Shown one piece after another: positions 51,025-63,769 of a stretch of 64,000 nucleotides of DNA. Position 1 is the stretch's first letter. Each line of letters opens with the position of its first letter. This stretch comes from a virus: the IMG/VR virus record IMGVR_UViG_3300034061_002899; one strand, 5' to 3'. The position numbers were made by a program, and so were the translations under genes. Under the pieces are notes generated by a model. It had not been told where the DNA came from. It worked only from the letters and a program-made list of their open reading frames with translations, and made no database searches.

Positions 51025-51120
51025 ACAACATATTTATATACAATATGATGTATTAAAATTTTGAGTAAATTACCATTCTGGATGGTTTGGCAGGCATCTA
51101 ATGATGCCCGCTATTATAGT

Positions 51121-51333: not shown

Positions 51334-51358
51334 AGTTTCTTTCTTTGGTTGTAAAAAA

Positions 51359-51434
51359 TGGAGCGGGATAAGAGGCTCGAACTCTCGACCTATACCTTGG
51401 CAAGGTATCGCTCTACCAACTGAGCTAATCCCGC
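51359..51434 (-). tRNA. tRNA-Gly(GCC)
   Basis: Cloverleaf; ATACC-TTGCCAA-GGTAT; CCA end. Confidence 0.97.
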
Positions 51435-51436
51435 AT

Positions 51437-51586
51437 TTAACTTGGTATCATTTTTGGCATATAAGGAACTGCTCTAGGTCCATGACGTTGTTGTAATAGC
51501 ATACGTGCTTCTTCAGCATTGTTTGCTCCTACTCTGTCTGTGAACTCTTTACCGTTCACTCTTACTGTTGCTTCAAATAATTTCAT
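51437..51586 (-). CDS. Small hypothetical protein (49 aa)
   Basis: MKLFEATVRV...GANNAEEARMLLQQRHG; between tRNAs. Confidence 0.65.
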   Translation of the reverse strand: MKLFEATVRVNGKEFTDRVGANNAEEARMLLQQRHGPRAVPYMPKMIPS

Positions 51587-51592
51587 AATGAT

Positions 51593-51668
51593 TGGTGGGT
51601 CGTGACAGGCTCGAACTGCCGACATTCTGCGTGTAAGGCAGACGCTCTACCAACTGAGCTAACGACCC
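51593..51668 (-). tRNA. tRNA-Val(TAC)
   Basis: TCTGC-CTTACAC-GCAGA; CCA. Confidence 0.97.
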
Positions 51669-51678
51669 TTTATTTTAT

Positions 51679-51864
51679 TTAACCACCTTGTTCACTGTCT
51701 TTAACATTTCCCCAATCAATGACTGGCTTTTCTACATTCATGTCAGGGAGAGGAGGAGGAACGTATCGTTCTTTTGGTGGCTTCTTACCGAATATAGCAT
51801 CATGCTTATCGGCTAATTCCTCTAAACTTATACTAAATGGTCTTGGTCTACTACCTTTACTCAT
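51679..51864 (-). CDS. Hypothetical protein
   Basis: MSKGSRPRP; AAGGA RBS. Confidence 0.75.
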   Translation of the reverse strand: MSKGSRPRPFSISLEELADKHDAIFGKKPPKERYVPPPLPDMNVEKPVIDWGNVKDSEQGG

Positions 51865-51886
51865 TTGATTTCCTTTAAATTAAACT

Positions 51887-51963
51887 TGGTCGGAGTACAA
51901 GGATTCGAACCTTGGACCCCCTGGTCCCAAACCAGGTGCGCTACCAGACTGCGCCACACTCCG
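51887..51963 (-). tRNA. tRNA-Pro(TGG)
   Basis: CCTGG-TTTGGGA-CCAGG; CCA. Confidence 0.97.
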
Positions 51964-51990
51964 AATTATTTATAGCCCGATGTTATCGAA

Positions 51991-52626
51991 TCACTTTTTC
52001 CACAAGTGACTCACATCATCAGGCATTTTGTATTCATTTCGATATTGCAATATAGTAATATCATCATACTGATCTTTACCATTCCAAGGTGCACCTAATG
52101 CTAATGTAACCTTACATTCATCTGATGTGTTAATCATCCCGTGAGGGAAGCCACCATCCATTACAAATGCATGTTCTATATCAGGAGCAGATACTTTTCC
52201 TTTATCAGTAATCCAGTATAGTGTACTAGTATTACCTTGCAAAACAATTCTTATCTTATGTTGTAACGTGTTCAACTCATGGGGACTACAATCAATATGT
52301 TCGTTGTTTGCCCCACCTGGTTTTGTTATCAACGCCATTACTCTAGCTTTACAGCCTATCCAGGGAAAAATATAATCTTCAAACCAATCAACGATTACTG
52401 CAGGAGTATGACTAACCCAACAAAAGTCACCCGGTTGATTATTACTAGTTCCGTCGACACCTATCCCGCCTTTAGTGTTTAAAGGAAACATTTGTGTATG
52501 TCTATAGTTGTCCCAAAAACTTAACTTACTATCAAGTGCTAAAATTTCTTTGGAGGCTTTTTTCTTATCTAAGATGGGTATACCATCTATTCTAGCAAAC
52601 AACAAATTATCGGCTGGTTTAATCAT
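51991..52626 (-). CDS. 2OG-Fe(II) oxygenase-like (Asp/Asn beta-hydroxylase type)
   Basis: EHIDC (HxD), PHGMIN. Confidence 0.65.
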   Translation of the reverse strand: MIKPADNLLFARIDGIPILDKKKASKEILALDSKLSFWDNYRHTQMFPLNTKGGIGVDGTSNNQPGDFCWVSHTPAVIVDWFEDYIFPWIGCKARVMALITKPGGANNEHIDCSPHELNTLQHKIRIVLQGNTSTLYWITDKGKVSAPDIEHAFVMDGGFPHGMINTSDECKVTLALGAPWNGKDQYDDITILQYRNEYKMPDDVSHLWKK

Positions 52627-52635
52627 ATAATATAT

Positions 52636-53163
52636 TTATGTTAATAGAAACACTGGATCAATATCTGTAGCAACCGTCATACAGATTCTTGGAACTGTAT
52701 TCATATTTGTATGCACTCTATGTGGTTCTTGAACCCTAATTACTGTAGGTCTAATGATTTCAACCTCTGCTACCTTAGTAGGTATTGAATTATCTTTCAA
52801 TAAGTAATAAGGTATTCCATTCTGTTGAAAAAACATAGTATACTCACCACCTGAATAAAATTCAGTGCGTGAGCCTTCGCAATTCAAAATAGGAATATTG
52901 ATTCGACATTGTGATTTAAGATTACTCTTATAGTCAATATGAACTTTAGAATGTTCTTGTAGGAAGGTTACGTACAACGCAACTTTTTTTACCTTTAGAT
53001 TATAGTCTGCAAACGCAGACAATATTTCAGGACAATATTCAAGGTAGTCCTTATCTAGTAAGGAGAACCCTACTCTCACCGATGAATGATGTTCAAGAAA
53101 CTTTTTGGTCTTTTCTTGAATGACCTCAAAGTTTTGTATTTCAATCTGATTAAAATATTTCAT
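52636..53163 (-). CDS. 2OG-Fe(II) oxygenase-like protein
   Basis: VHIDY, RINIPILNC, PHRV, PRI. Confidence 0.65.
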   Translation of the reverse strand: MKYFNQIEIQNFEVIQEKTKKFLEHHSSVRVGFSLLDKDYLEYCPEILSAFADYNLKVKKVALYVTFLQEHSKVHIDYKSNLKSQCRINIPILNCEGSRTEFYSGGEYTMFFQQNGIPYYLLKDNSIPTKVAEVEIIRPTVIRVQEPHRVHTNMNTVPRICMTVATDIDPVFLLT

Positions 53164-53166
53164 ATT

Positions 53167-53241
53167 TGGATGCGGGTGACAGATTCGAACTGCCGATGCA
53201 CCTGGCTTATGAGACCGGTGTGGTGACCAACCCTACCCGCG
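53167..53241 (-). tRNA. Atypical initiator-like tRNA-Met(CAT)
   Basis: C1:A72 mismatch, CTCATAA loop, canonical T arm, CCA; poor D arm and bulged anticodon stem. Confidence 0.7.
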
Positions 53242-53244
53242 TAA

Positions 53245-53313
53245 TTTATAAATGTATTTCTTTTTCACTTACAGAGCCAGTCTTATCAGCTGGGTATGAA
53301 ACACATTTATAAA
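53245..53313 (-). ncRNA. Stem-enclosed small RNA cassette A
   Basis: 16-bp inverted repeat (one G.U pair) closing a 37-nt insert. Confidence 0.5.
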
Positions 53314-53314
53314 G

Positions 53315-53505
53315 TGAGACTGCTACTACACCACATAGCCCAGTCTCTGAGTTGTTACACTGTCCACTTCTTCAATCTAGACGGTTAGAAGTCCGCCTTT
53401 GTGATTTTTCAAGTCGCTTTAAACAAGCCTTGCAGTAGATCCAATGCACTGTGCTATTAAGGTATTAGCAATTACCTAACTCTATTACGCTGAGTTAACG
53501 CGGGT
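53315..53505 (-). ncRNA. Pseudoknot-rich ncRNA, paralogue of 57860-58055
   Basis: H-type pseudoknots AGGTA/TACCT+TGCTA/TAGCA and GGCGG/CCGTC+ACTTCT/AGAAGT; shared 3' motif. Confidence 0.6.
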
Positions 53506-53509
53506 TTAT

Positions 53510-53585
53510 TGGTGGAGGATACCGGGATCGAACCGATGACCTACTGGTTGCAAACCAGTCGCTCTCCCAACTGAGCTAATCCCCC
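53510..53585 (-). tRNA. tRNA-Ala(TGC)
   Basis: G3:U70; TTTGCAA loop; CCA. Confidence 0.97.
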
Positions 53586-53972
53586 TCATCTCAGTAAGCC
53601 TCTACTTCCTCGTCCACTACCTTTATTCTTGGCAGCATATGATGCAGTTTGGCTATGACAGTTTGGACACAACAGCCTTACATTTTCAGGCATATTATTA
53701 CCAGCATTGCCATCTATATGATCTAACTGTAATGCTAACGGCACATTGTTATGTATTCCGTTATTACTACAACAAGCACATTTATATCCTGTTAGTTTTG
53801 TGATAATCTTATTCAGTGTCCGTCTATCTTTTACCTCACCTAAGTAAAATTTAGGCATAGTTAAATCTTTAAAAGTAAAATCAGCCTGACATTGATTGTC
53901 GCAAAACTTATTTTTATTATTACGCTTTACAGTGTTTTCTCTGTTACAGTGTAGGCAGTTAAATGTATTCAT
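53586..53972 (-). CDS. HNH endonuclease
   Basis: CACC, LQLDHIDGNAGNN...LCPNCHSQT. Confidence 0.9.
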   Translation of the reverse strand: MNTFNCLHCNRENTVKRNNKNKFCDNQCQADFTFKDLTMPKFYLGEVKDRRTLNKIITKLTGYKCACCSNNGIHNNVPLALQLDHIDGNAGNNMPENVRLLCPNCHSQTASYAAKNKGSGRGSRGLLR

Positions 53973-54051
53973 AGTATAATTCTTTGTAGTCCGTATACTA
54001 TTTATGCAAACGCTCTACATTTTGATATTTACCTACACCCCCAATATTCTT

Positions 54052-54128
54052 TGGTGCCCTAGGAGAGACTCGAACTCTCAGTTTACGGCTTCTAAGACCG
54101 CTGTGTCTACCAATTTCACCACCAGGGC
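54052..54128 (-). tRNA. tRNA-Leu(TAG) lacking the long variable arm
   Basis: Leu-type D arm GTGAAATTGGTAGACAC; CTTAGAA loop; 77 nt; CCA. Confidence 0.9.
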
Positions 54129-54188
54129 ATTCATTTCAATACGTATTGTAACAGAGAACTATTTATCTGTCTACTGTTTTGGATAACT

Positions 54189-54262
54189 TGGAGCGGGGTA
54201 ACAGAATCGAACTGTCCGCATCAGATTGGAAATCTGAGGTATTACCACTATACGAACCCCGC
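54189..54262 (-). tRNA. tRNA-Gly(TCC)
   Basis: TCAGA-TTTCCAA-TCTGA; U73-CCA. Confidence 0.96.
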
Positions 54263-55030
54263 TTATATATATTTTCTTTCACTTAACCAGGGCACAATAA
54301 CCTCATCAACAAATTCTTTATGCATCTCTGTTGTGGGGTGATGTGGACCTGTAAGAATATTCCATTCTTCAGGATTAGACTCTGCGTATTTTGAATTTTT
54401 TGATATCCAATTATACTGACTAGTTATAGGAAGATACTGCTCTGTATCAATTTGTTTATATAAGTAATCTATTTCAGGATGTGTTATATTTTCAGGCAGA
54501 ACAATATTATCGTCCATATAATTAGTAAAAAAATATTTAATATTTTTTGATTTTAGAAACCATTGTGTTTTCAATATATGCTCAATCGAATATATACTTG
54601 ATCCTATTTCATCATGGAACATTTTATAATATGTCATCGCTTCTTTATTATTTTCTGCCCAATTGGTATTAAGTATTACCCAATTTTTTGTACTATCTTT
54701 TACAAAACCAGTTGGATTTTCCATCCATCCATTATGTACTTTATCAGATACAAAATGTAATAAACCAGGTGATGTACATCTAAAGTCATGTCTATTAGAA
54801 CCACTCCACATAACACCTACTAGTATATCTTCTGGTTTATGTGTCTTTAGTGCTTCTAGTACACCATATATTATACTTCTACTTATAAGTCCGTTACCCT
54901 GACTACCCATTGCATAACTCTTATGATCATAGTCAGTTAATTCTTTAGATAAATGTATAGGCCACGCTTTATTTGCATAACTAATACATTCACTAAAACT
55001 ACAACCTGAGGTGATTAATAATTTTTTCAT
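54263..55030 (-). CDS. SGNH/GDSL-like protein
   Basis: SGCSFS, GNGLI.R, MWSGSNR, HHPTTEMH. Confidence 0.7.
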   Translation of the reverse strand: MKKLLITSGCSFSECISYANKAWPIHLSKELTDYDHKSYAMGSQGNGLISRSIIYGVLEALKTHKPEDILVGVMWSGSNRHDFRCTSPGLLHFVSDKVHNGWMENPTGFVKDSTKNWVILNTNWAENNKEAMTYYKMFHDEIGSSIYSIEHILKTQWFLKSKNIKYFFTNYMDDNIVLPENITHPEIDYLYKQIDTEQYLPITSQYNWISKNSKYAESNPEEWNILTGPHHPTTEMHKEFVDEVIVPWLSERKYI

Positions 55031-55040
55031 AAATATACTT

Positions 55041-55208
55041 ATGCACATTTACGATGCTATTACAAATTCCGGATTACACATCCATCTTTCAATGATGGAA
55101 GATGAATCCTTTTACATTATGGTACATGATCTTGTGAACTTCACTATGCAAATGAAGTTCTTTAGTAGCGTTGAGCCTGCTAGAGCATTTATTCAATCAC
55201 TAGAATAA
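55041..55208 (+). CDS. Small hypothetical protein
   Basis: ATAAATA late-type promoter directly upstream. Confidence 0.55.
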   Translation: MHIYDAITNSGLHIHLSMMEDESFYIMVHDLVNFTMQMKFFSSVEPARAFIQSLE

Positions 55209-55210
55209 TT

Positions 55211-55284
55211 TGGCATCCCCCCAAGGATTCGAACCTTGACTAACGGTTTTGGAGACCGGTATGCTGCCATTACATTAGGGAGAT
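55211..55284 (-). tRNA. tRNA-Trp(CCA)
   Basis: CCGGT-CTCCAAA-ACCGT; G73-CCA; overlaps 3' end of upstream CDS. Confidence 0.93.
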
Positions 55285-55815
55285 ATTTAATTCTTTTAAT
55301 TTGTCTAAGTAATGTGATTGACCTTTACTGACCATTGAACGCCAGTCATTTAGTGAATCATCATTGGCTCCGTCACTAACAAACTTGTAACATAGAAACT
55401 CTACTTTATGTTTCCTGCATACTTTCGCAATAGCGTATGCTTCCATATCTACTACATCAGCAGGAATTAATAAGTTACTATCTGTGACAAAGTTATCACC
55501 TGTACTACAAGTTAATCCATCACCATTATCAATGATGATAGTATCTTCAAATGGTGTTTGACCTGGTAGACTACCTAACTCACAGCACATCATATCACGT
55601 TGAATAAACTTTGACACTTGATGGAATCCTGACTTAACAGTAACTCCACCTGCTGTACCAAAGTTGATAACACGATCAGGGTTGTACTTGGCAATCAACT
55701 CAGCCGCAGTCATTGCGGCATTTACTTTTCCTACACCTGTGTAAAATACTTTCATACTGAAAGCCATGTCAGGTGCTTCTTCTTTCAATGCAATTAATAT
55801 TAAATCTTTTTTCAT
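55270..55815 (-). CDS. mtnN: MTA/SAH nucleosidase (PNP_UDP_1 family)
   Basis: TGVGKVNAA, NFGTAG, TGDNFV, VDMEAYA, KFVSDGA. Confidence 0.85.
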   Translation of the reverse strand: MKKDLILIALKEEAPDMAFSMKVFYTGVGKVNAAMTAAELIAKYNPDRVINFGTAGGVTVKSGFHQVSKFIQRDMMCCELGSLPGQTPFEDTIIIDNGDGLTCSTGDNFVTDSNLLIPADVVDMEAYAIAKVCRKHKVEFLCYKFVSDGANDDSLNDWRSMVSKGQSHYLDKLKELNISLM

Positions 55816-55824
55816 AAATTCTCT

Positions 55825-55916
55825 TGGTGGAAACGGTGAGATTCGAACTCACGGGACGCATTAACATCCGACAGTTTTCAAGACTGTTGCAATAAACCGG
55901 GCTCTGCCACGCTTCC
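55825..55916 (-). tRNA. tRNA-Ser(TGA)
   Basis: ACAGT-CTTGAAA-ACTGT; long variable arm; CCA. Confidence 0.95.
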
Positions 55917-56104
55917 TATTTTATTAGTATATCTACGTTTTGACCTTTAGCGGCAGGTTCTATTTTTCCTGTATTGTCGTAAAGGTATTGTATGACTTCT
56001 AAAACTGTTTTATTTGTCTTAGGATCTACTAGAGTACGATACTCGGTGTTGCGATATTGGTTATAAACCATATCCCAACTGTTTGTTATACTTTGTACTA
56101 TCAT
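55916..56104 (-). CDS. Hypothetical protein
   Basis: ATAAATA promoter upstream; KGQNVDI C-terminus. Confidence 0.65.
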   Translation of the reverse strand: MIVQSITNSWDMVYNQYRNTEYRTLVDPKTNKTVLEVIQYLYDNTGKIEPAAKGQNVDILIK

Positions 56105-56117
56105 ATAGTATTTATTA

Positions 56118-56212
56118 TACCATATAGAAACACACTTTTAAACCTTTCTTCAGCGTTTAGTCGCTATCTCCCTTACTAATCGGGCGTAGGGTAAATGTGT
56201 TTTTATATGGTA
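56118..56212 (-). ncRNA. Stem-enclosed small RNA cassette B
   Basis: 17-bp inverted repeat (1 mismatch) including the tRNA-Lys ACCA end; internal hairpins. Confidence 0.5.
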
Positions 56213-56281
56213 GGAGTGTTCGGGAACGATCCGAATTTTACCGGTTAAAAGCCGGTTACTTCACCTTAAAGTTTCACTCCC
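56208..56281 (-). tRNA. Atypical tRNA-Lys(TTT)
   Basis: ACCGG-CTTTTAA-CCGGT; A8, T-loop ATCGTTC; CCA. Confidence 0.8.
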
Positions 56282-56341
56282 ATAAGTCGTAATGATTGAT
56301 TTTACGTGCCAATCATAGACCTACGGAAGTCTATGATGACA

Positions 56342-56362
56342 CTATCGCTTACTGCGTTTCAT
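56342..56362 (-). other. Mini-ORF MKRSKR-amber followed by hairpin/pseudoknot (56286-56342)
   Basis: AAAGGAAACGAC-ATG AAA CGC AGT AAG CGA TAG; GTGTCA/TGGCAC and TCATAGAC/GTCTATGA stems. Confidence 0.5.
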
Positions 56363-56385
56363 GTCGTTTCCTTTGTTAAAAAATT

Positions 56386-56461
56386 TGGAGTGGGTGACAG
56401 GGGTCGAACCTGCATGTCACGGATTTGCAATCCGCTACCTAACCATTCAGTACACACCCAC
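56386..56461 (-). tRNA. tRNA-Cys(GCA)
   Basis: GCGGA-TTGCAAA-TCCGT; U73-CCA. Confidence 0.95.
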
Positions 56462-56466
56462 ATATT

Positions 56467-56668
56467 GCTCTGGCATCCCCCGGCGGTAATTATAGAGTAT
56501 CAAGACATGACGCTATCATACCCATCACACACTCCTTCCACCCGCTTCCCGAAACAGGGACCGTTCTCGCATTGCCAGCGGCCTTTGGGTTTAAAGACTA
56601 CCACCCGTAGCTGTCACGCTACTTCTCATCCTGTGGGTCACAGTATCCGGAGACACCCGGAACGTTCT
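56467..56668 (-). ncRNA. GC-rich ~200-nt structured RNA of unknown class
   Basis: Hairpins TCCGG/CCGGA, CTGTG/CACAG, GTAGC/GCTAC; long-range GGTGGTAGT/ATTACCGCC; CTGGCA/TGCCAG pseudoknot. Confidence 0.6.
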
Positions 56669-56682
56669 TTTATAAATACAGT

Positions 56683-56865
56683 ATGGATATCCAAGACTGC
56701 ATTGATATAGTTGAAAAGTTGTTGCGTCAAAACAACCGTAATTATAAGGATAGCCACGAACAATTATTATATGAACGAGGTTACCTTACTGGTATGCTTG
56801 CTCGGATGATGATTGAAAATCCTATGTTTCGCAATGAAATCATAGACCGAGCAAAAAAGAAATGA
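56683..56865 (+). CDS. Hypothetical protein
   Basis: TATAAATA late promoter at 56671-56678. Confidence 0.65.
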   Translation: MDIQDCIDIVEKLLRQNNRNYKDSHEQLLYERGYLTGMLARMMIENPMFRNEIIDRAKKK

Positions 56866-56866
56866 T

Positions 56867-56954
56867 TGGTGGAGAGTGTGGGATTCGAACCCACGCACCC
56901 ATTGCTGGATGACAGATTAGCAATCTGTTGGTTTAACCACTCACCCAACTCTCC
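56867..56954 (-). tRNA. tRNA-Ser(GCT)
   Basis: ACAGA-TTGCTAA-TCTGT; long variable arm; CCA. Confidence 0.95.
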
Positions 56955-56960
56955 TATACA

Positions 56961-57037
56961 TGGTGCCTCCGACAGGACTCGAACCTGTAACCAATGGATT
57001 ATGAGTCCACTGCTCTAACCAATTGAGCTACCGAGGC
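56961..57037 (-). tRNA. tRNA(CAT), probably Ile2
   Basis: GTGGA-CTCATAA-TCCAT; CCA; Ile2 vs Met is inferred. Confidence 0.85.
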
Positions 57038-57044
57038 GCTATTT

Positions 57045-57449
57045 TTAATTATTTCTTAAAACTTGTTCTCGCCTTTCTTTGACGATTTCATTTCTTTTAC
57101 TAACATCTTTTATTTTTTGTATATCCAAACAATCTCTAATACAATCGTCAGGTAATGCCATATTTTTTCTAACAAGTTTAGCAACTTCTAATTCATTTGG
57201 TAATAACCCGCGAAGGCCGTTAAAGGGTCTTTTCCACATTCCGTTATCTACTGCATGACAGGTTATACATGTATGATCGGGCATTGAAGGTCGCATGTCT
57301 CTAGCTAAATGATTACCTGTTAACTTAGAGCATACATAGTTATCTGTTACTGTGGGGTATTCTATACCACAACTATTAGTTGAGATTGGTTTTAATGTTG
57401 AACACCCGGTAAGTAAAAGAAACATTAATACTAAGCCTATTTTTTTCAT
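57045..57449 (-). CDS. Lipoprotein with CxxCH heme-binding motif
   Basis: Lipobox LLTGC; HTCITCHA. Confidence 0.6.
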   Translation of the reverse strand: MKKIGLVLMFLLLTGCSTLKPISTNSCGIEYPTVTDNYVCSKLTGNHLARDMRPSMPDHTCITCHAVDNGMWKRPFNGLRGLLPNELEVAKLVRKNMALPDDCIRDCLDIQKIKDVSKRNEIVKERREQVLRNN

Positions 57450-57485
57450 GTATCACCCTTTATATGGACAGAGAACTTAAAAATT

Positions 57486-57571
57486 TGGTGCGACTGGCCG
57501 GAATCGAACCGGCACGCTGTTACGGCGAGAGATTTTAAGTCTCTTGTGTCTACCTATTTCACCACAGTCGC
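57486..57571 (-). tRNA. tRNA-Leu(TAA)
   Basis: AGAGA-CTTAAAA-TCTCT; long variable arm; CCA. Confidence 0.96.
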
Positions 57572-57619
57572 AAATCTTGTTATCATTATATATCATACAA
57601 TGATTGTAGTCAAATATTA

Positions 57620-57696
57620 TGGCGCACCGTAGGGGACTCGAACCCCTGGCCTCATGCGTGACAGGCATGCGATCTAACCAACTGATCTAACGGTGC
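57620..57696 (-). tRNA. tRNA-Asp(GTC)
   Basis: CATGC-CTGTCAC-GCATG; G73-CCA. Confidence 0.97.
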
Positions 57697-57768
57697 AAAA
57701 TCTGTGATAGTTTCTATACAACCCATTGAAACTAACAAACATTGAGTATATTGCTACACTATTTGTCT

Positions 57769-57852
57769 TGGTGGAGACGGTTGGAGTTGAACCAACAGTG
57801 CCGAAGCGGAAGATTTACAGTCTCCTGGGGTTACCAATTTTCCTACATCTCC
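57769..57852 (-). tRNA. tRNA-Tyr(GTA)
   Basis: GGAGA-CTGTAAA-TCTTC; variable arm; CCA. Confidence 0.95.
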
Positions 57853-57859
57853 AAAATTA

Positions 57860-58055
57860 GTATAAGCTACTTGTTTCCACACAAGCCCTTAATTGAGCGG
57901 TTACTCTGTCCATCTCATTTATTCAAAGTCTGTGTGCAGTGAGAATCTGCCTATCAGAGCCTGCGAGGGTATTTTTAATCCTCACGCTAACGGTTTTCTG
58001 CCACCGGATCTCTATCATTAATCAAACGCTATTTTAACGAAAATAGTAACGGGAT
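57860..58055 (-). ncRNA. Pseudoknot-rich ncRNA, paralogue of 53315-53505
   Basis: Shared TGGACAG.GTAAC..CTCA....GGGCT..TGTGG...AGTAGC; GCAG/CTGC+TCTCA/TGAGA pseudoknot. Confidence 0.6.
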
Positions 58056-58057
58056 AC

Positions 58058-58133
58058 TGGAGCTCGGTACGGGATTCGAACCCGTGTGAATGCCGTGAAA
58101 GGGCACTATCCTAGGCCACTAGATGAACCGAGC
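58058..58133 (-). tRNA. tRNA-Glu(TTC)
   Basis: GTGCC-CTTTCAC-GGCAT; CCA. Confidence 0.95.
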
Positions 58134-58137
58134 ATTA

Positions 58138-58265
58138 TGTTATTAGTTTTGCTGACGCACTATTTGCTATGTCTCAACGGAATTGGTGGCCACACTACCG
58201 TTTATCGTCATAGTTACGTAGGGTTGACGTTTACCCAAGGGCTTACATCAGCAAAACTAATAACA
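58138..58265 (-). ncRNA. Stem-enclosed small RNA cassette C
   Basis: Perfect 18-bp IR TGTTATTAGTTTTGCTGA/TCAGCAAAACTAATAACA closing 92 nt. Confidence 0.55.
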
Positions 58266-58267
58266 CA

Positions 58268-58480
58268 CTATATGAAAACACACTATGGGAACTACTAAAC
58301 AAATAGTCAGTACCGTCTACTGATTCAATGTCATTCGTCATTACTGCCTAACTGCCCGTCACGTTCGTAACTTTCGTTATCATACGCTTCTTGTACTCTA
58401 TGCGAAGCCAGTCCGTCAACTGGTTATGCTTCCATAGAGTACCTAACGGATCAGGTAACCCTTAATATGTTTACATATAG
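58268..58480 (-). ncRNA. Stem-enclosed structured RNA cassette D
   Basis: 13-bp closing IR (1 mismatch); internal GTACTCTATG/CATAGAGTAC stem; complementary loops TCCGT/ACGGA. Confidence 0.55.
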
Positions 58481-58566
58481 AGCCCTGAACTTAACAGGGA
58501 TATATGAATTCTAAATTTTAAAGAACTTTGTTGAAATGTCTGATGACTTTCTCAACTCATGCTATG

Positions 58567-58595
58567 ATTGTATCATAACTTCCATTTGTTGTCAA
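58567..58595 (-). promoter_or_regulatory. sigma70 promoter
   Basis: TTGACA-17-TACAAT. Confidence 0.8.
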
Positions 58596-58648
58596 ATTCT
58601 TTTTTGTGTCTCTGTTTCCAAGAACTTGTTCAATCAATCTATAACTAG

Positions 58649-58677
58649 AGTATAGCACTAAACTGATTTATTGTCAA
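58649..58677 (-). promoter_or_regulatory. sigma70 promoter (repeat family)
   Basis: TTGACAATAAAT..-TATACT with TG extension. Confidence 0.8.
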
Positions 58678-58681
58678 ATTT

Positions 58682-58756
58682 TGGTCCGGGGTACAGGAAT
58701 CGAACCTGTATTGACTGCTTAGAAGGCAGCTGTATTATCCATTATACTAACCCCAG
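58682..58756 (-). tRNA. tRNA-Arg(TCT)
   Basis: GCTGC-CTTCTAA-GCAGT; CCA. Confidence 0.95.
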
Positions 58757-58777
58757 ATAAATGTCTAACTTGCCTCT

Positions 58778-58806
58778 ATTATAGCAGAGAATTGATTTAT
58801 TGTCAA
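58778..58806 (-). promoter_or_regulatory. sigma70 promoter (repeat family)
   Basis: TTGACAATAAAT..-TATAAT. Confidence 0.85.
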
Positions 58807-58827
58807 GTGTGACAATAACTATTTGAT

Positions 58828-58903
58828 TGGCTCCCCGACCTGGGCTCGAACCAGGGACCTACGGATTAACAGTCCGGTGCTCTACCAACTGAGCTATCGA
58901 GGA
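58828..58903 (-). tRNA. tRNA-Asn(GTT)
   Basis: CTGTTAA loop; G73-CCA. Confidence 0.97.
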
Positions 58904-58908
58904 ATATT

Positions 58909-58983
58909 TGGTGCCCCAGGTTAGAATCGAACTAACTACCTACCGCTTACAAGGCGGGTGCTCTACCAGTGAGCTACAAGGGC
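58909..58983 (-). tRNA. tRNA-Thr(TGT)
   Basis: CTTGTAA loop; CCA. Confidence 0.95.
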
Positions 58984-59013
58984 TTTTGTCTTACGACTTG
59001 TTTATTTAACAGT

Positions 59014-59042
59014 ATTGTATCATAGGAAAACTTTTTTGTCAA
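59014..59042 (-). promoter_or_regulatory. sigma70 promoter
   Basis: TTGACA-17-TACAAT. Confidence 0.8.
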
Positions 59043-59043
59043 C

Positions 59044-59604
59044 CTATGATAATAATATTCTACTGTGTTTGGGAACACCGGCAAGCAAGTATTCCATTTG
59101 GTCTGCAAGAATAGTTCTATGTTGTAATATCATATTCTCGTAATGATTAGGTACGTAAGGTGCATAAATTAATTCCATACGTGCTTCTTTCAATGTCTTG
59201 TGACCTTTCTTGCTGTTACAATCTTTACAAGCTGTAACAACGTTCATCCAGGTGTTCTCACCACCTTTACTCTTTGGATGAATATGATCTCTACTTAGTA
59301 AGTGAAAGTTAGGAAAGTGTTCACCGCAGTAAGCGCATACATGTCTATCACGACCAAATAATGTTTTGTTAGTTAGTGCTACACAAGAATGTTTGTATGG
59401 GTTGAATCCGTGTCCTTTGATAGCAATAATACTAGTAGCTTCCAAGTAACTTAATGTACCGTCTTTTTGTATGCCACCACGATATTTAGCCACAATTTCC
59501 CCCATTGACCATGCTATGGCATCTTTTGCTTTATAGGTAATTGCGTCATCATTTGAGATCCACTGCCGGGGAACTCCTGAGATATCTAGTGCTAGAACAG
59601 CCAT
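59044..59604 (-). CDS. HNH endonuclease (McrA-like)
   Basis: LFGRDRHVCAYCG...DHIHPKSKGG..TWMNVVTACKDCNSKKG; AAGGAG RBS. Confidence 0.92.
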   Translation of the reverse strand: MAVLALDISGVPRQWISNDDAITYKAKDAIAWSMGEIVAKYRGGIQKDGTLSYLEATSIIAIKGHGFNPYKHSCVALTNKTLFGRDRHVCAYCGEHFPNFHLLSRDHIHPKSKGGENTWMNVVTACKDCNSKKGHKTLKEARMELIYAPYVPNHYENMILQHRTILADQMEYLLAGVPKHSRILLS

Positions 59605-59652
59605 GTAAAACTCCTTTTCTGCTATTGTCACTAATTGTATTTAATGCCGTAT

Positions 59653-59727
59653 TGGCGGGTCCTGCAGGAATCGAACCCACATCCCGAAGTTCGAAGCATC
59701 GTATTCTATCCATTGAACTAAGGACCC
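59653..59727 (-). tRNA. tRNA-Arg(TCG)
   Basis: CTTCGAA loop; A20; CCA. Confidence 0.9.
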
Positions 59728-59729
59728 AT

Positions 59730-59805
59730 TGGTACCAAGAGTTGGACTCGAACCAACCACACCTAGTGCTTCAAACTAGTGCTCTACCTGATGAGCTATC
59801 TTGGC
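59730..59805 (-). tRNA. tRNA-Phe(GAA)
   Basis: CTAGT-TTGAAGC-ACTAG (G37); CCA. Confidence 0.92.
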
Positions 59806-59812
59806 TTATAAA

Positions 59813-59964
59813 GGTGGGAGCCTAACTATCTTATTGTTAGTAAGCCTCGCTAGATTGTCTCGTATAGGCAAGTTTATACACCCATCAATCATACTATAGT
59901 GTCATCACAGTTAACCCCACGGTGACTAGATTGGCAGGGACTCGAACCTATCGTCTATCCCATA
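59813..59964 (-). ncRNA. T-loop-containing structured RNA, not a canonical tRNA
   Basis: TGGGA/TCCCA closing stem; AGGTTCGAGTCCCT near 5' end; several hairpins; no ORF. Confidence 0.45.
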
Positions 59965-59978
59965 AACTTTGAAAATTA

Positions 59979-60647
59979 TTATTTACTTTTATAAGGCAAC
60001 GTACACCACATGATTACAGCAGTTTTCGATTCTATGCCATTTTTAAGATAGTTATCGCTACAGTGCCATTTATATCGGCTGGCTGCCAACAATGAACCGG
60101 TCTTCCATGGGAAAACGGTTTCAATTGATAAGTATCTCATTTTTTCTCTCAACTCATATGAAAGGTATTTTTCATATGTTTCGTCATCTATAGAATCAAT
60201 GGGGTCTGCTTTTTGAATGTATTCGTCAATATTTTTACTAGTGGTATACCATTCATTAAAAATGACAGTATTAGAATCTACTGTTTCTAATGGAATAACA
60301 ACTGTATATGCACCATAGTGGTCATCATCTATTCCATATTCCCCATATATACCATCTATATGTGTTCGGTATGGAGTATATGATTCTAATATATGCATCC
60401 CACCTATAACTAAATCAGCTCCAAATTCTTTATGCATTTTTTCTCTTAATAACAAATCAGAATTTTTCATCGACGGATTATCTAATATTGACGTAATTTT
60501 ACATTCTAATTCATTTTCGGAATATGTTTCAGATATAGCGTTTGGATCTACGGTAATAGCTTCAAGTAAAATAGATTCAACCTCTGTATTAGATAAAAAA
60601 TTATCTATAACTCTAGTATCAACAATGGGTGGGTTAAGATTAATCAT
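59979..60647 (-). CDS. 2OG-Fe(II) oxygenase-like protein
   Basis: THIDG, VIPL, WKTGSL, WHCSDN, K. Confidence 0.6.
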   Translation of the reverse strand: MINLNPPIVDTRVIDNFLSNTEVESILLEAITVDPNAISETYSENELECKITSILDNPSMKNSDLLLREKMHKEFGADLVIGGMHILESYTPYRTHIDGIYGEYGIDDDHYGAYTVVIPLETVDSNTVIFNEWYTTSKNIDEYIQKADPIDSIDDETYEKYLSYELREKMRYLSIETVFPWKTGSLLAASRYKWHCSDNYLKNGIESKTAVIMWCTLPYKSK

Positions 60648-60670
60648 AATATAACTATTTATATAATGTT

Positions 60671-60748
60671 TGGCACCCCCTCAAGGATTCGAACCTCGGT
60701 GTGTCGGAATCAAAATCCGATGCCTTAGACCAACTTGGCGAAGGGGGT
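60671..60748 (-). tRNA. tRNA-Gln(TTG)
   Basis: TCGGA-TTTTGAT-TCCGA; G73-CCA. Confidence 0.95.
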
Positions 60749-60757
60749 ATTTTATCT

Positions 60758-60847
60758 TTAATAAAGAGACTCCTTGTACACATTACATAAATGTGTCCAT
60801 GCTTCAATTTCTTGTTTATGCTTTTCTACTGATTGATTCCAACTCAT
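60758..60847 (-). CDS. 29-aa peptide between tRNAs
   Basis: AAGGAGA RBS; MSWNQSVEKHKQEIEAWTHLCNVYKESLY. Confidence 0.5.
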   Translation of the reverse strand: MSWNQSVEKHKQEIEAWTHLCNVYKESLY

Positions 60848-60865
60848 TTGAGTCTCCTTAAAATT

Positions 60866-60940
60866 TGGTACCGCCACCTGGACTTGAACCAGGGACCTAC
60901 GCCTTATCAAGGCGGTGCTCTACCACTGAGCTATAGCGGT
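60866..60940 (-). tRNA. tRNA-Ile(GAT)
   Basis: TTGATAA loop; CCA. Confidence 0.96.
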
Positions 60941-60944
60941 GAAT

Positions 60945-61019
60945 TGGTGGATGTAAGTAGATTTGAACTACTGACCTGCTCCGTATGAAGGAGATGCACT
61001 ACCGCTGTGCTATACATCC
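60945..61019 (-). tRNA. tRNA-Met(CAT), elongator
   Basis: TTCATAC loop; G1:C72; CCA. Confidence 0.9.
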
Positions 61020-61020
61020 A

Positions 61021-61097
61021 TGGGGTGCTTGATGGGATTCGAACCCACGTATATCGGAATCACAATCCGAGGTCTTAACCGCTTGACGACAAGCACC
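61021..61097 (-). tRNA. tRNA-His(GTG)
   Basis: TTGTGAT loop; G-1:C73; CCA. Confidence 0.96.
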
Positions 61098-61104
61098 ATA
61101 CTAT

Positions 61105-61181
61105 TGGTACGACCTAAGAGAGTTGAACTCCTGACCCCCAAGTTCGTAGCCTGGTGCTCTATCCATCTGAGCTAAGGTCGC
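61105..61181 (-). tRNA. tRNA-Arg(ACG)
   Basis: CTACGAA loop; A20; CCA. Confidence 0.96.
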
Positions 61182-61253
61182 ATTCTAAAACATACTATGG
61201 CTTAACCTTTCAGGGGTCAGGGTACTGTTTACCCATAGTATGTTTTAGAATGC
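61180..61253 (-). ncRNA. Stem-enclosed small RNA cassette E
   Basis: Perfect 21-bp IR GCATTCTAAAACATACTATGG/CCATAGTATGTTTTAGAATGC closing 32 nt. Confidence 0.55.
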
Positions 61254-61400
61254 CGTGTATTTCTACACGACATGATAGGGTCGATACCCTATCCAGTAGT
61301 CTTACTTTTTGTGTTACCGCCACAAATTTCATGTGTACTGTCCGCCCATTCTATACATTTTGCGCTGTATTACGGCTCTCGTTGCCTATTCACGCTGTCA

Positions 61401-61568
61401 TCAATCAGTATAAGTTAGTTGGTTAACTTTCTTAGTAGCCTCTTGATAGACTTTAGCACGTTCAAGTTTATTTTCTATCAACCGTGCTACTTGCTCCTTA
61501 GTCAAAACATGATTGCTAAACCAATCTGTCTTGTCTTTAGAAGTTGTGTATTCTATCTGTTCATCCAT
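61401..61568 (-). CDS. Small hypothetical protein (55 aa, not in ORF track)
   Basis: MDEQIEYTTSKDKTDWFSNHVLTKEQVARLIENKLERAK...; start uncertain. Confidence 0.45.
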   Translation of the reverse strand: MDEQIEYTTSKDKTDWFSNHVLTKEQVARLIENKLERAKVYQEATKKVNQLTYTD

Positions 61569-61578
61569 TTATTGTCAA
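61550..61578 (-). promoter_or_regulatory. sigma70 promoter heading the tRNA array
   Basis: TTGACAATAAATGG..-TAGAAT. Confidence 0.8.
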
Positions 61579-61595
61579 ATCCATTCTGTATAAGT

Positions 61596-61630
61596 AAAAA
61601 CCCCTGAGACTTTTTAGTTTCCCAGGGGTT
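61596..61630 (-). terminator. Terminator/attenuator hairpin
   Basis: AACCCCTGGGA..TCTCAGGGGTTTTT. Confidence 0.8.
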
Positions 61631-61658
61631 AGATAAATTTAGTTATGATGTTAACTTG

Positions 61659-61796
61659 TTACCTAGTCCCCGGGCCATGTTCATTTGAATCATTGTAGCC
61701 ACGAATACTTGTTGGATATGCTGGTACAAAGGATACACTGGCTGTTGTCTGCCATTGCCCGTTATGCTTCAACATGTTACAAGTTTTATTCATCAT
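61659..61796 (-). CDS. Putative leader peptide (45 aa)
   Basis: MMNKTCNMLKH...IRGYNDSNEHGPGTR; ends ~30 nt before the terminator. Confidence 0.45.
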   Translation of the reverse strand: MMNKTCNMLKHNGQWQTTASVSFVPAYPTSIRGYNDSNEHGPGTR

Positions 61797-61872
61797 AGTC
61801 TTTTATTTAGTCCTGGTTTAAAATTAGTGCAAATTACATATGTTTTTTGCACCTTTTCTCAATTCATGCTGA

Positions 61873-61901
61873 AGTATAGCATAGCTAGGAATTGATGTCA
61901 A
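61873..61901 (-). promoter_or_regulatory. sigma70 promoter
   Basis: TTGACA-17-TATACT with TG extension. Confidence 0.8.
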
Positions 61902-61962
61902 CATTTTTTTAAAGCATGTTGCCCAAAAATTTTGTTTATGATTAGCCCGTATACCCTAGTTA

Positions 61963-62787
61963 TTATTTAAATAAATGATCAAACAGTTTGGCAATTTTTG
62001 TATGACCAAGTAGAGTTGGATGGAAGGAATATGGGTTAATTAGGTCATTTGCAATAAGATGATCTATTCTATTTGTGTCTTTTACCCATTGACTAGTATG
62101 GTAGCCGTCAATATTATTATTGAATTCAGAATCTATTGCAAGTTGACTCATAAGGTCTCTTGATGTTGGATGATCTATAACAAAATTATTGATTTGAGTA
62201 TTGTTCTTATAATTAGATTCTGATCCTTGTTTAAGACCCGGACTATCTAAAGTGTAATCATGATGGTTAAATGAATCGAACCAATAATTTTTTATGCCCA
62301 ACGCATTAAAGAATGAATTCCAATGATTCATTTCCTGTGCCAGTTCAAAGATTTCATGATTATGGTCATATATATTTTTGAGCATGAATTCAGACATGTT
62401 TTTTTCTACAGGACAAGGGTGTTTGTCACTTGACAATAAGAAGTTCGTATAGTCATTATTCATTGAGGAAAACCATTCATTTCTTCCAGTAGAGGTTATC
62501 CCCCACAGTACGATAACTTCACTACCAGATTGTTTGATAGAGTTAAAAGAAGTTCCTGAAAAAAAATTCCTGGCTAGTCTAAATTGTCGTCTATTACTAG
62601 ATCGCCATATTGACATGTTTATATTTTTATACCCATATTGTTCAGCTAGTATGTTTCTGAAACTTAGGGTGTCGGCTACATTTTTATCAAATACGATTTT
62701 TTTAAAATCTACATCAGACATACCAGATGTATAACCAACACCAGCTCCCCATGTCCAACTACATCCCAGTGTTATTAAATATTTCAT
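61963..62787 (-). CDS. SGNH/GDSL-like protein
   Basis: LGCSWTWGAG, SSNRRQ.R, WGITSTGRNE, SFHPTLLGH. Confidence 0.7.
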   Translation of the reverse strand: MKYLITLGCSWTWGAGVGYTSGMSDVDFKKIVFDKNVADTLSFRNILAEQYGYKNINMSIWRSSNRRQFRLARNFFSGTSFNSIKQSGSEVIVLWGITSTGRNEWFSSMNNDYTNFLLSSDKHPCPVEKNMSEFMLKNIYDHNHEIFELAQEMNHWNSFFNALGIKNYWFDSFNHHDYTLDSPGLKQGSESNYKNNTQINNFVIDHPTSRDLMSQLAIDSEFNNNIDGYHTSQWVKDTNRIDHLIANDLINPYSFHPTLLGHTKIAKLFDHLFK

Positions 62788-63766
62788 ATTTGAATGTCAT
62801 TTTGTTTTTTAAATCATTAATATACTGTATCGGATTATTCAATACCAGTTGATTTTGTTTTGCATGATAGTTACTTAAAGTATATTTGATAAATTCTTGT
62901 TTGTCAACTTCCAATTGCCCAAAAAGTTTTGTAAATATATGAGTTAACTGGTCTCCGTCATTTAGTCTAATAACATCATATGGTAATATTATACATTCTT
63001 CATCTATAAAATCAGAATAAGGTGCGATTACCTTAAAAGGTTCTTGTTGACCAATTTCATGACCCACATTGGGTAATAATACATGATGACCGACCGTTGG
63101 CAACAACACATAATTAACTACGTCAGGTGTATCCCCTAATAACTTGTAGTATTCAAACATGCGAACCAGGGTAATATAAGTTACTATATCTTGGTAATCA
63201 GGATTGAATCTATCATCTACAATCGTTTTTGCTAACTCTTTATCATCAAATAGTTTAGTAATTTTATATTCAGCATATTCTTTCCATCTATCTAATGCAA
63301 CATTACGTCTGTTTTTGGAAATGGTTGATATCACATTAGGATCTAATATGTTTTTTAATTGTTGTAATATTGTAATTGTTAATTTTTCAGCCAAGGACTC
63401 TTGGGTAACTACTAGTATTTTTGCGTTTGGAAACAGGTGGCGGTAAATTGGGATGTTTGTAAAATCGTGTGTACAGCTTATTATTGGTTTTTTTATATCA
63501 AGTTGGGTGAATTGTTGTTGAACGTCAGAAATTTTAGCTAACCTATTGTGTGCTAATGATAACGGTCGTACAAAAGTAGTACGTGGTAAATTTACTTTAT
63601 TAGATGTAGTATTTGATATTACGTGAAAACTTCCAGTTGAAGAAATGTCTAACTTAGACAAGTTGTTTGACATTAGTTTATCTGTCAATCCTGCTAGAAA
63701 ATTACCACCGGCGCCCGGGTGAAAAACGATAAAATAATGTCTTAAGTTATATACATCGCTCATCAC
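62759..63766 (-). CDS. Sulfotransferase-like P-loop protein
   Basis: FHPGAGGNFL, CTH..., FPNAKILVV. Confidence 0.45.
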   Translation of the reverse strand: MMSDVYNLRHYFIVFHPGAGGNFLAGLTDKLMSNNLSKLDISSTGSFHVISNTTSNKVNLPRTTFVRPLSLAHNRLAKISDVQQQFTQLDIKKPIISCTHDFTNIPIYRHLFPNAKILVVTQESLAEKLTITILQQLKNILDPNVISTISKNRRNVALDRWKEYAEYKITKLFDDKELAKTIVDDRFNPDYQDIVTYITLVRMFEYYKLLGDTPDVVNYVLLPTVGHHVLLPNVGHEIGQQEPFKVIAPYSDFIDEECIILPYDVIRLNDGDQLTHIFTKLFGQLEVDKQEFIKYTLSNYHAKQNQLVLNNPIQYINDLKNKMTFKYEIFNNTGM

Positions 63767-63769
63767 ATA

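What the first reader, a model, noticed from the sequence alone, without database searches (positions are those of the whole stretch)
53245..61253. Five small inserts in the tRNA array each closed by a long AU-rich stem (RNase III-like excision cassettes)
Inverted repeats of 16, 17, 18, 13 and 21 bp lie at 53245/53313, 56118/56212, 58138/58265, 58268/58480 and 61180/61253. Most contain an AAAC(A)/(T)GTTT core, and they enclose unrelated structured inserts of 32-190 nt. Two stems overlap tRNA ends (Lys ACCA; Arg 5' GC). Known: RNase III cuts ~2-turn helices that bracket rRNAs and phage transcripts. Inference: a modular system releasing small RNAs from the tRNA precursor and possibly gating tRNA maturation.
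Basis: partly seen in the sequence, partly recalled or inferred. Interest (0 to 1): 0.72.

Follow-up and report, generated by a model that had tools for sequence, protein, structure and literature searches.

The report
Stem-closed RNA cassettes flanking phage tRNAs
In the tRNA gene cluster of an uncultured jumbo phage, small RNA modules are each closed by a long A/U-rich helix that often starts inside the CCA end of one tRNA and stops at the first base of the next; related phages keep the helix while freely swapping the RNA inside, which points to an undescribed way of processing or controlling phage tRNAs and small RNAs.

Summary
All five inverted repeats exist and fold on the tRNA (minus) strand into closing helices of 16-24 pairs (z -4.2 to -7.3). 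Four of the six best inverted repeats in the 64-kb window lie in the 10-kb tRNA array. E1, E3 and E5 belong to a family found in at least 120 uncultured phage contigs. It has a conserved ~18-20-bp A/U-rich helix with covariation, a recurrent U.G wobble and a central A.C mismatch. G.U-type pairs outnumber A.C-type 72 to 6, so it is an RNA-strand structure. The helix typically begins inside the CCA of an upstream tRNA, above all Lys-UUU, and ends at the next tRNA's 5' end. The enclosed insert ranges from 3 to over 200 nt. Inside identical arms, 107 distinct inserts form 78 unrelated groups. One large insert type (E5) is itself a covarying structured RNA, and some inserts are tRNA-like. Relatives encode no RNase III, Ro60, dsRBD protein, CCA-adding enzyme or integrase. 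The best reading is helices in the tRNA precursor that mask tRNA ends and act as double-strand processing sites, probably for host RNase III, with optional cargo; cleavage is untested. Earlier scan notes cover this same genome only.

The parts
61180..61253 (-). E1: family-type cassette, 21-bp helix enclosing 32 nt; its 3' arm runs 2 nt into tRNA-Arg(ACG)
   Evidence: C-G to U-A compensatory change against L003; same arms with a shorter insert in L083
61105..61181 (-). tRNA-Arg(ACG), first gene of the Arg-His-Met-Ile block; its 5' leader is the 3' arm of E1
58268..58480 (-). E5: family-type arms (20 pairs, 2 mismatches) enclosing a 169-nt conserved structured RNA
   Evidence: (18 of 48 pairs with double compensatory changes in 6 homologs)
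58136..58267 (-). E2: 24-bp helix with its own arm sequence enclosing 84 nt, wedged between E5 and tRNA-Glu; absent at that junction in L007 and L012, where the E5-type cassette is flush with tRNA-Glu
58058..58133 (-). tRNA-Glu(UUC), starting 2 nt after E2
56118..56212 (-). E3: family-type cassette; the helix starts 5 nt inside the 3' end of tRNA-Lys (last acceptor base, discriminator, CCA); 55-nt insert
56208..56281 (-). tRNA-Lys(UUU), whose 3' end is paired into E3
   Evidence: Lys(UUU) is followed by such a helix in 8 of 10 distinct contexts
53245..53313 (-). E4: 16-bp helix enclosing 37 nt, 4 nt upstream of the tRNA-Met-like gene; its arm motif is in the reverse order relative to the family
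   Evidence: (G.U-compatible substitutions and one compensatory pair in the inner hairpin)
53166..53240 (-). low-scoring tRNA-Met(CAT)-like gene with CCA, missed by default ARAGORN and by Rfam
   Evidence: detected as tRNA-Met in L006, L007 and L012
58567..58677 (-). two near-consensus sigma70-type promoters (11 of 12 matches each) that would drive the E5-E2-tRNA-Glu unit
61550..61578 (-). sigma70-type promoter (11 of 12) at the head of the array, upstream of E1

Best explanation
The five elements are transcribed parts of the phage's polycistronic tRNA precursors. Each is an RNA helix of about 16-24 A/U-rich pairs. It forms between the 3' trailer of one unit (in the commonest form starting inside the CCA of tRNA-Lys-UUU) and the 5' leader of the next unit. 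The helix closes a loop that may be empty, a short variable filler, a tRNA-like remnant or a real structured small RNA. I propose the helix itself is the functional part. It masks the ends of selected tRNAs and serves as a double-strand processing site. A double-strand-specific endonuclease, most likely the host's RNase III, cuts it. That cut exposes the CCA trailer to exonuclease trimming and the downstream leader to RNase P, and it releases any cargo with a short protective stem. Shown here: the helices exist, are on the RNA strand, covary, are conserved clade-wide, sit flush with tRNA ends, are co-transcribed with tRNAs, are selective for a few tRNA species, and keep their arms while cargo is exchanged. 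Inferred: the cleavage, the nuclease, and any effect on timing of tRNA maturation.
For: The helices fold with z -4.2 to -7.3. 52 distinct arm pairs are 95.1% paired, against 80.7% when arms are re-paired among cassettes (maximum 83.4% in 2000 trials). Several positions show all Watson-Crick types. G.U-type pairs number 72 against 6 A.C-type outside one special position, so only the tRNA-sense strand is selected to fold. The strict arm motif occurs in complete 330-364-kb relatives only as convergent pairs in tRNA arrays. Of 147 exact-arm cassettes, 104 begin inside the CCA of a tRNA and 62 end at a tRNA 5' end. The order Lys, cassette, His is kept in distant relatives with loops of 3-5, 37 and 59 nt. 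One promoter and no terminator span 13 tandem cassettes in L019, and none of 147 cassettes is followed by a U tract. Empty cassettes show the helix matters without cargo. Four of five window stems reach the ~22 bp that RNase III binds. A 20-bp helix flush with both tRNA ends leaves neither RNase P nor 3' exonucleases a single-stranded entry, which follows from established knowledge of these enzymes.
Against: There are no expression or cleavage data; all relatives are metagenomic. The phages encode no RNase III or dsRBD protein and the host is unknown. E4 has only 16 pairs. The arm sequence is far more conserved than RNase III's loose specificity requires. The helix centre carries A.C or A-U pairs, where E. 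coli in-vivo sites prefer a G-C pair between the two cuts. Only about 5-8% of tRNA ends have such a helix, so it is not needed for tRNA processing in general.
Confidence: 0.5

Rival explanations
1. The helix is not cut. It is the protective terminal stem of small stable RNAs that are freed by RNase P at the downstream tRNA and by trailer cleavage at the upstream tRNA. The cassettes are then an expression scaffold for phage small RNAs.
For: The E5-type cargo is a covarying structured RNA. Some cargos are tRNA-like, with D and T arms stacked on the helix. The tiling with tRNAs resembles T4 rnaC/rnaD. Paired 5' and 3' ends are typical of stable RNAs (own knowledge).
Against: Empty cassettes with 3-6-nt loops are conserved flush between tRNAs. 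Most small cargos are hypervariable and only weakly structured, with mean z -0.5. With the CCA paired into the helix, the upstream tRNA could not mature unless the helix is opened.
Confidence: 0.2
2. The conserved arms are a sequence-specific handle for an unknown phage or host protein. This could be an RNA-binding regulator, a chaperone or an anti-defence factor that holds selected tRNAs (Lys-UUU, Gln-UUG, Leu-UAA) as masked precursors or displays the variable loops.
For: Identical 14-nt arm cores occur in at least 120 contigs. The A.C mismatch and U.G wobble recur at fixed positions. The helices are selective for U34 tRNAs, which are known anticodon-nuclease targets. Loops are hypervariable and GC-enriched.
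Against: No candidate partner was found: there are no dsRBD, TROVE or RNase III genes, and the array ORFs are unannotated. Arm sequences do drift with compensation in more distant relatives, so pairing is the main constraint.
Confidence: 0.15
3. The arms act mainly at the DNA level, as short repeated palindromes that promote recombination and shuffle tRNA-array modules (PeSL-like), or as ends of a miniature mobile element.
For: tRNA order and cargo are mosaic among relatives. The same cargo sits in different stems. HNH endonuclease genes lie in the array.
Against: The strong G.U over A.C asymmetry means only one strand is selected to fold. Direct-repeat flanks occur in 0 of 147 cassettes, and cargos fall into 78 unrelated groups rather than one element. 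There is no tyrosine recombinase. There is no promoter or terminator pair as in PeSLs. Recombination between arms may still be how cargo is swapped, as a side effect.
Confidence: 0.07
4. The cassettes are Y-RNA-like (YrlA-type) RNAs: a long stem that binds Ro60, plus a tRNA-like module.
For: They have a long closing stem and, in some copies, a tRNA-like interior. YrlA RNAs occur in phages (PMC4201824).
Against: No TROVE/Ro60 gene exists in four complete relatives, with positive controls working. The GNCGAA stem motif occurs at chance level, 1 of 43. Rfam gives no Y-RNA or YrlA match to any cassette.
Confidence: 0.03

Closest known systems
RNase III processing stems of bacterial rRNA operons and of phage T7 early transcripts
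   Same: A helix of about two turns, formed by sequences flanking a stable RNA inside a polycistronic precursor that also holds tRNAs. The helix is the proposed entry point for a double-strand nuclease.
   Different: Here the helix is a repeated family with conserved sequence. It starts inside a tRNA's CCA and ends at the next tRNA, may enclose nothing, and is attached to only a few tRNA species. Cleavage is not shown.
T4 small stable RNAs rnaC and rnaD (species 1 and 2) in the T4 tRNA cluster
   Same: Small non-coding RNAs tiled 1-6 nt after a tRNA in a phage tRNA cluster. rnaC has a tRNA-like T arm, as some cargos do here.
   Different: They have no long A/U-rich closing helix and no shared arms. 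There are two fixed genes rather than a swappable family. Homology was not tested beyond the folds.
MHV68 TMERs (viral tRNA-like unit followed by pre-miRNA hairpins, released by tRNase Z; PMC4838037)
   Same: A viral tRNA unit is directly followed by hairpins that depend on tRNA-processing enzymes. In TMER4 the stem-loop is needed while its sequence is free.
   Different: That is a eukaryotic virus using Pol III and Dicer. The hairpins do not include the CCA and are not a conserved-arm family.
Leader/trailer-extended tRNA in Sinorhizobium jumbo phage Phosso (PV764938), found here
   Same: Long helices in a jumbo-phage tRNA array bury the CCA end. They use a shared arm motif and are confined to the tRNA region.
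   Different: The arm sequence is unrelated, and the leader pairs with the trailer of the same tRNA. The phage is unrelated, and the window-type motif is absent from it.
GOLLD and ROOL RNAs of phage tRNA islands (PMC12286853)
   Same: Structured non-coding RNAs of unknown function encoded next to phage tRNAs.
   Different: Those are 500-800-nt ornate RNAs with fixed architecture. There is no Rfam match here, and the common element here is a simple helix.
PeSL cassettes of T4-type phages and integron attC sites
   Same: Repeated stem-loop modules associated with mosaic shuffling. attC sites have a variable terminal structure inside conserved arms.
   Different: Here there is no promoter-plus-terminator pair, no attC core sites, no integrase, and the selection is RNA-strand-specific.

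Membership tests
RNase III substrate (processing stem) | continuous double helix of about 20-22 bp | tested here: met
   E1 21, E2 24, E3 19+1, E5 20+2 pairs; E4 only 16; the size rule is from PMC6212723
RNase III substrate (processing stem) | staggered double cleavage leaving 2-nt 3' overhangs, dependent on rnc | not testable with these tools
   needs end-mapping in wild-type and rnc-deficient cells, or an in-vitro assay
RNase III substrate (processing stem) | base-pair preferences around the cut (a G-C pair between the two cuts in vivo) | tested here: inconclusive
   the helix centre is A.C, A-U or G-C; the cut position is unknown
RNase III substrate (processing stem) | an RNase III enzyme available | tested here: inconclusive
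   none encoded in 4 complete relatives; the host is unknown, though nearly all bacteria have one (own knowledge)
Y RNA / YrlA | Ro60 (TROVE) gene nearby | tested here: not met
   0 of 4 complete relatives; the controls are positive
Y RNA / YrlA | GNCGAA(N)G motif in the stem | tested here: not met
   1 of 43 cassettes; shuffles give 1.4
Y RNA / YrlA | match to the Rfam Y-RNA or YrlA models | tested here: not met
   the only weak YrlA hit overlaps ordinary tRNAs
Integron attC | integron integrase (tyrosine recombinase) | tested here: not met
   0 of 5 records
Integron attC | RYYYAAC and GTTRRRY core sites at the two ends | tested here: not met
   0 of 43
MITE / transposon ends | target-site duplication and a homogeneous interior | tested here: not met
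   0 of 147 with flanking direct repeats; 78 unrelated interior groups
PeSL (promoter-early stem-loop) | strong promoter joined to a terminator stem-loop | tested here: not met
   no U tract after 147 cassettes; one promoter for 13 cassettes in L019; only E3 overlaps a 10-of-12 promoter-like site
T4 rnaC/rnaD-type stable RNAs | small RNA tiled after a tRNA in a phage tRNA cluster | tested here: met
T4 rnaC/rnaD-type stable RNAs | stable accumulation as a discrete RNA | not testable with these tools
   needs RNA from infected cells
Known Rfam families (GOLLD, ROOL, ribozymes, sRNAs) | covariance-model match | tested here: not met
   only tRNAs at E up to 1 in 50000-64000

The most novel reading that the evidence does not exclude
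The conserved helix is a dedicated RNA scaffold recognised by an unknown factor. It holds selected U34 tRNAs (Lys-UUU, Gln-UUG, Leu-UAA, the usual targets of anticodon nucleases) as masked precursors and displays rapidly exchanged loop RNAs, including tRNA mimics. It would work as decoys or a reserve in an arms race with host tRNA-targeting defences. That would be a new class of phage counter-defence RNA module built into tRNA arrays.
Probability: 0.12. Interest if true: 0.9.

Novelty: new variant of a known kind. Interest (0 to 1): 0.7.

Why it matters
Phage tRNA arrays are usually read as simple gene lists. This work shows that one large clade of uncultured jumbo phages builds a repeated, sequence-conserved RNA helix into the junctions of particular tRNAs, burying their CCA ends, and uses the same helix to carry exchangeable RNA cargo. 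If the helix is a processing or control site, maturation of selected phage tRNAs is regulated, and tRNA precursors serve as a platform for producing small RNAs in bacteria. The only clear precedent for that is in herpesvirus TMERs. The work also supplies a compact, testable RNA element, a 43-nt minimal hairpin between two tRNAs. An analogous case in a cultured Sinorhizobium phage offers an experimental entry point.

Tried and rejected
- GenBank phages: no close relative of the array, only tRNA matches; no match to the minimal hairpin.
- Whole-genome search of the window's own assembly: none is held.
- A second array protein as a locus probe: no relatives.
- Rfam at a permissive threshold: tRNAs only.
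- Partner-protein searches in complete relatives: no TROVE, RNase III (two models), dsRBD, CCA-adding enzyme, tyrosine recombinase or RtcB. An Rnl2-type ligase is marginal in 2 of 4.
- Pfam and PHROGs on array ORFs: only two HNH endonucleases and a phosphorylase-superfamily protein.
- Antisense targets of the five interiors within the window: nothing above chance.
- E5-type profile against the other ~190-nt non-coding blocks: no relation detected.
- Bacterial genomes: one hit, on a 1.5-kb contig of a freshwater MAG, taken as a mis-binned phage fragment and not a host clue.
- Window-type motif in Melnitz, Phosso, Aeromonas phage 65 and a 595-kb phage: single chance hits only.
- First Phosso pattern: missed because the gap range was too narrow, then corrected.
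- Literature searches: no description of this family. The T4 RNase III and species 1/2 literature could not be retrieved and is cited from memory only.
Full report
WHAT THE WINDOW IS. The window carries 26 tRNA genes, all on the minus strand, between 51359 and 61181. Small ORFs are interspersed, including two HNH endonucleases and a phosphorylase-superfamily protein. Nothing in GenBank phages matches the array except the tRNAs themselves. Proteins place the genome in a clade of uncultured phages with complete IMG/VR genomes of 330-364 kb. The closest cultured relatives are only about 36-41% identical in one large protein: Methylophilales phage Melnitz and pelagiphage HTVC008M. Seven near-consensus sigma70-type promoters lie on the tRNA strand. 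All 26 tRNAs encode CCA.

THE OBSERVATION. On the tRNA strand they close helices of 21 (E1), 24 (E2), 19+1 (E3), 16 (E4) and 20+2 (E5) pairs around 32, 84, 55, 37 and 169 nt. Fold z-scores run from -4.2 to -7.3. Four of the six best inverted repeats of the whole 64-kb window are these. E3 begins 5 nt inside the 3' end of tRNA-Lys. E1 ends 2 nt inside tRNA-Arg(ACG). E2 ends 2 nt before tRNA-Glu, and E5 abuts E2. E4 ends 4 nt before a tRNA-Met(CAT)-like gene that default ARAGORN and Rfam missed but which is found at a lower threshold and in relatives.

THEY ARE RNA-STRAND STRUCTURES UNDER SELECTION. Homologs in close relatives show compensatory changes. E1 has C-G to U-A. An E3-type copy in L002 has several double changes. 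The inner hairpin of E4 has A-U to G-C, and E4 stem substitutions give G.U pairs only on the minus strand.

A scan of 80 related loci found many more long helices flush with tRNA ends that share one arm sequence. From 52 distinct arm pairs, the helix has about 18 conserved pairs:
- One position shows all four Watson-Crick types, with 52 of 52 copies paired.
- One position is mostly a U.G wobble (31 of 52).
- A central position is often A.C.
- G.U-type pairs number 72, against 6 A.C-type outside the central position.
- Own arms pair at 95.1%, against 80.7% when arms are re-paired among cassettes (maximum 83.4% in 2000 trials).

A cruciform or a duplex DNA site would not show that strand asymmetry.

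A CLADE-WIDE FAMILY TIED TO tRNA ENDS. In complete genomes the strict arm motif occurs only as convergent pairs inside tRNA arrays. It hit only one bacterial-genome contig, a 1.5-kb piece of a freshwater MAG. It hit no cultured phage.

Of 147 exact-arm cassettes, 104 begin inside the CCA of a tRNA: 73 Lys-UUU, 18 Gln-UUG, and nine other tRNA species. 62 end within a few nt of a tRNA 5' end. The order tRNA-Lys, cassette, tRNA-His is kept in distant relatives with no unpaired linker on either side.

In loci not selected by the motif, such helices sit at only 15 of 276 distinct tRNA 3' ends and 23 of 273 5' ends. They concentrate on Lys-UUU (8 of 10), Leu-UAA (4 of 10), Glu-UUC, Met-CAU and Arg-ACG. 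This is therefore a selective device, not general punctuation.

In L019 about 13 cassettes follow one perfect promoter with no further promoter or terminator. No cassette is followed by a U tract. They are segments of tRNA precursors.

STEMS PERSIST, INSERTS SWAP. Inside identical arms, 107 distinct inserts fall into 78 sequence-unrelated groups. Loop length ranges from 3-6 nt (empty hairpins in L010 and L016) to more than 200 nt.

Between the window and L002, the 100-nt leader, both arms and the downstream flank are conserved, while the insert is unrelated. The window's E3 insert recurs in other stems of L002 and L012. E2 is an extra module at a junction where L007 and L012 have the E5-type cassette flush with tRNA-Glu.

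Small inserts are GC-enriched (47% against 37%) but only weakly structured, with mean z -0.5. The E5-type insert is a real structured RNA: 18 of 48 pairs show double compensatory changes in six homologs. Some inserts are tRNA-like, with a D arm right after the 5' arm and a T arm right before the 3' arm.

HOW IT PROBABLY WORKS. A 20-bp helix that starts at the discriminator/CCA of one tRNA and ends at position -1 of the next leaves no single-stranded entry for 3' exonucleases or for RNase P's leader contacts. That inference rests on established knowledge of those enzymes. A double-strand nuclease is therefore the natural opener. Four of the five stems fit the ~22 bp that RNase III binds.

I therefore favour processing and end-masking helices with optional cargo (confidence 0.5), and within that reading host RNase III as the nuclease. 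The weaknesses are:
- There are no RNA data.
- The phages have no RNase III or dsRBD gene.
- E4 is short.
- The arm sequence and its A.C and U.G pairs are conserved beyond what RNase III would demand.

The rivals are a protective terminal stem for stable small RNAs (0.2), a handle for an unknown sequence-specific partner (0.15), DNA-level recombination modules (0.07) and Y-RNA-like RNAs (0.03). Empty cassettes argue against a pure cargo scaffold. The strand asymmetry, the absence of target-site duplications and the absence of an integrase argue against DNA-level readings. The absence of Ro60 and of the Y-RNA motif argues against Y RNAs (PMC4201824).

COMPARISON WITH KNOWN SYSTEMS. T4 rnaC and rnaD tile after tRNA-Arg, but they lack long closing helices. 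Aeromonas phage 65 and a 595-kb uncultured phage have no such helices at tRNA ends. Acinetobacter phage AB-Navy1 has one, which its record annotates as a terminator.

The cultured Sinorhizobium jumbo phage Phosso has an unrelated stem family, confined to its tRNA region. In it, the leader of a tRNA-Asn pairs with that tRNA's own CCA and trailer. Burying CCA ends in long helices may thus be a wider jumbo-phage habit.

MHV68 TMERs are the nearest functional analogy (PMC4838037). GOLLD and ROOL are the known non-coding RNAs of phage tRNA islands (PMC12286853). No paper describing this family was found.

VERDICT. The feature is real, conserved and undescribed. It is a new variant of the known idea of processing helices and tRNA-linked small RNAs, and its mechanism is not yet shown. 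Earlier notes of this scan flag the same cassettes and neighbouring RNAs on this same genome only.

Noticed in passing
53166-53240 (minus): A 27th tRNA gene, Met(CAT)-like, with a weak D arm and an encoded CCA. Default ARAGORN and Rfam miss it. It is 90-99% identical over the full 79 nt in seven relatives, and ARAGORN calls it tRNA-Met in three of them (L006, L007, L012).
   Followed up: partly
53314-53509 and 57853-58057 (minus): Two non-coding blocks of about 196 and 205 nt lie directly 3' of tRNA-Ala and tRNA-Glu. Both are conserved at 78-88% in several relatives and share short motifs with each other. The E5-type profile does not detect them.
   Followed up: partly
56462-56682 (minus): A GC-rich non-coding block of about 220 nt just upstream of tRNA-Cys. 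It is conserved at 86-90% in five relatives and has no Rfam match.
   Followed up: partly
59806-59978 (minus): A non-coding block containing a tRNA-like T arm followed by CCA, probably a decayed tRNA. It is conserved in L003, L052 and L012.
   Followed up: no
58268-58480 (minus); L010:5668-5886; L013:10918-11136; L002:6568-6811: The E5-type cargo is a distinct structured RNA family of about 215 nt with invariant internal motifs and many compensatory pairs.
   Followed up: partly
L019:4775-7381: About 13 tandem cassettes are transcribed from one perfect sigma70 promoter. The spacers between them contain decayed tRNA parts (T arms, an Asp-like anticodon arm).
   Followed up: partly
L207 (Sinorhizobium phage Phosso, PV764938 421185-428072): An unrelated stem family with its own shared arm motif sits in a cultured jumbo phage's tRNA array. 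One copy extends the acceptor stem of a tRNA-Asn by pairing its leader with its CCA and trailer.
   Followed up: partly
57585-61901 (minus): Seven sigma70-type promoters with 11-12 of 12 consensus matches, all on the tRNA strand. Several share the same extended sequence after the -35 box.
   Followed up: no
56090-56117 (minus): The flank just after E3 is conserved in L002 and L012. It contains an A/T-rich motif resembling a T4-type late promoter, ahead of a 62-codon ORF.
   Followed up: no
53586-53972 and 59044-59631 (minus): Two HNH endonuclease ORFs are embedded in the tRNA array. They are possible drivers of the array's mosaicism.
   Followed up: no
16172-18223 (minus): A 683-aa protein is 36-41% identical to proteins annotated as adenylate/guanylate cyclase in Methylophilales phage Melnitz and pelagiphage HTVC008M. 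This hints at a freshwater or marine oligotroph host range for the clade.
   Followed up: no
61597-61630 (minus): A terminator-like GC hairpin with a U tract lies immediately upstream of the promoter at 61578 that heads the array.
   Followed up: no
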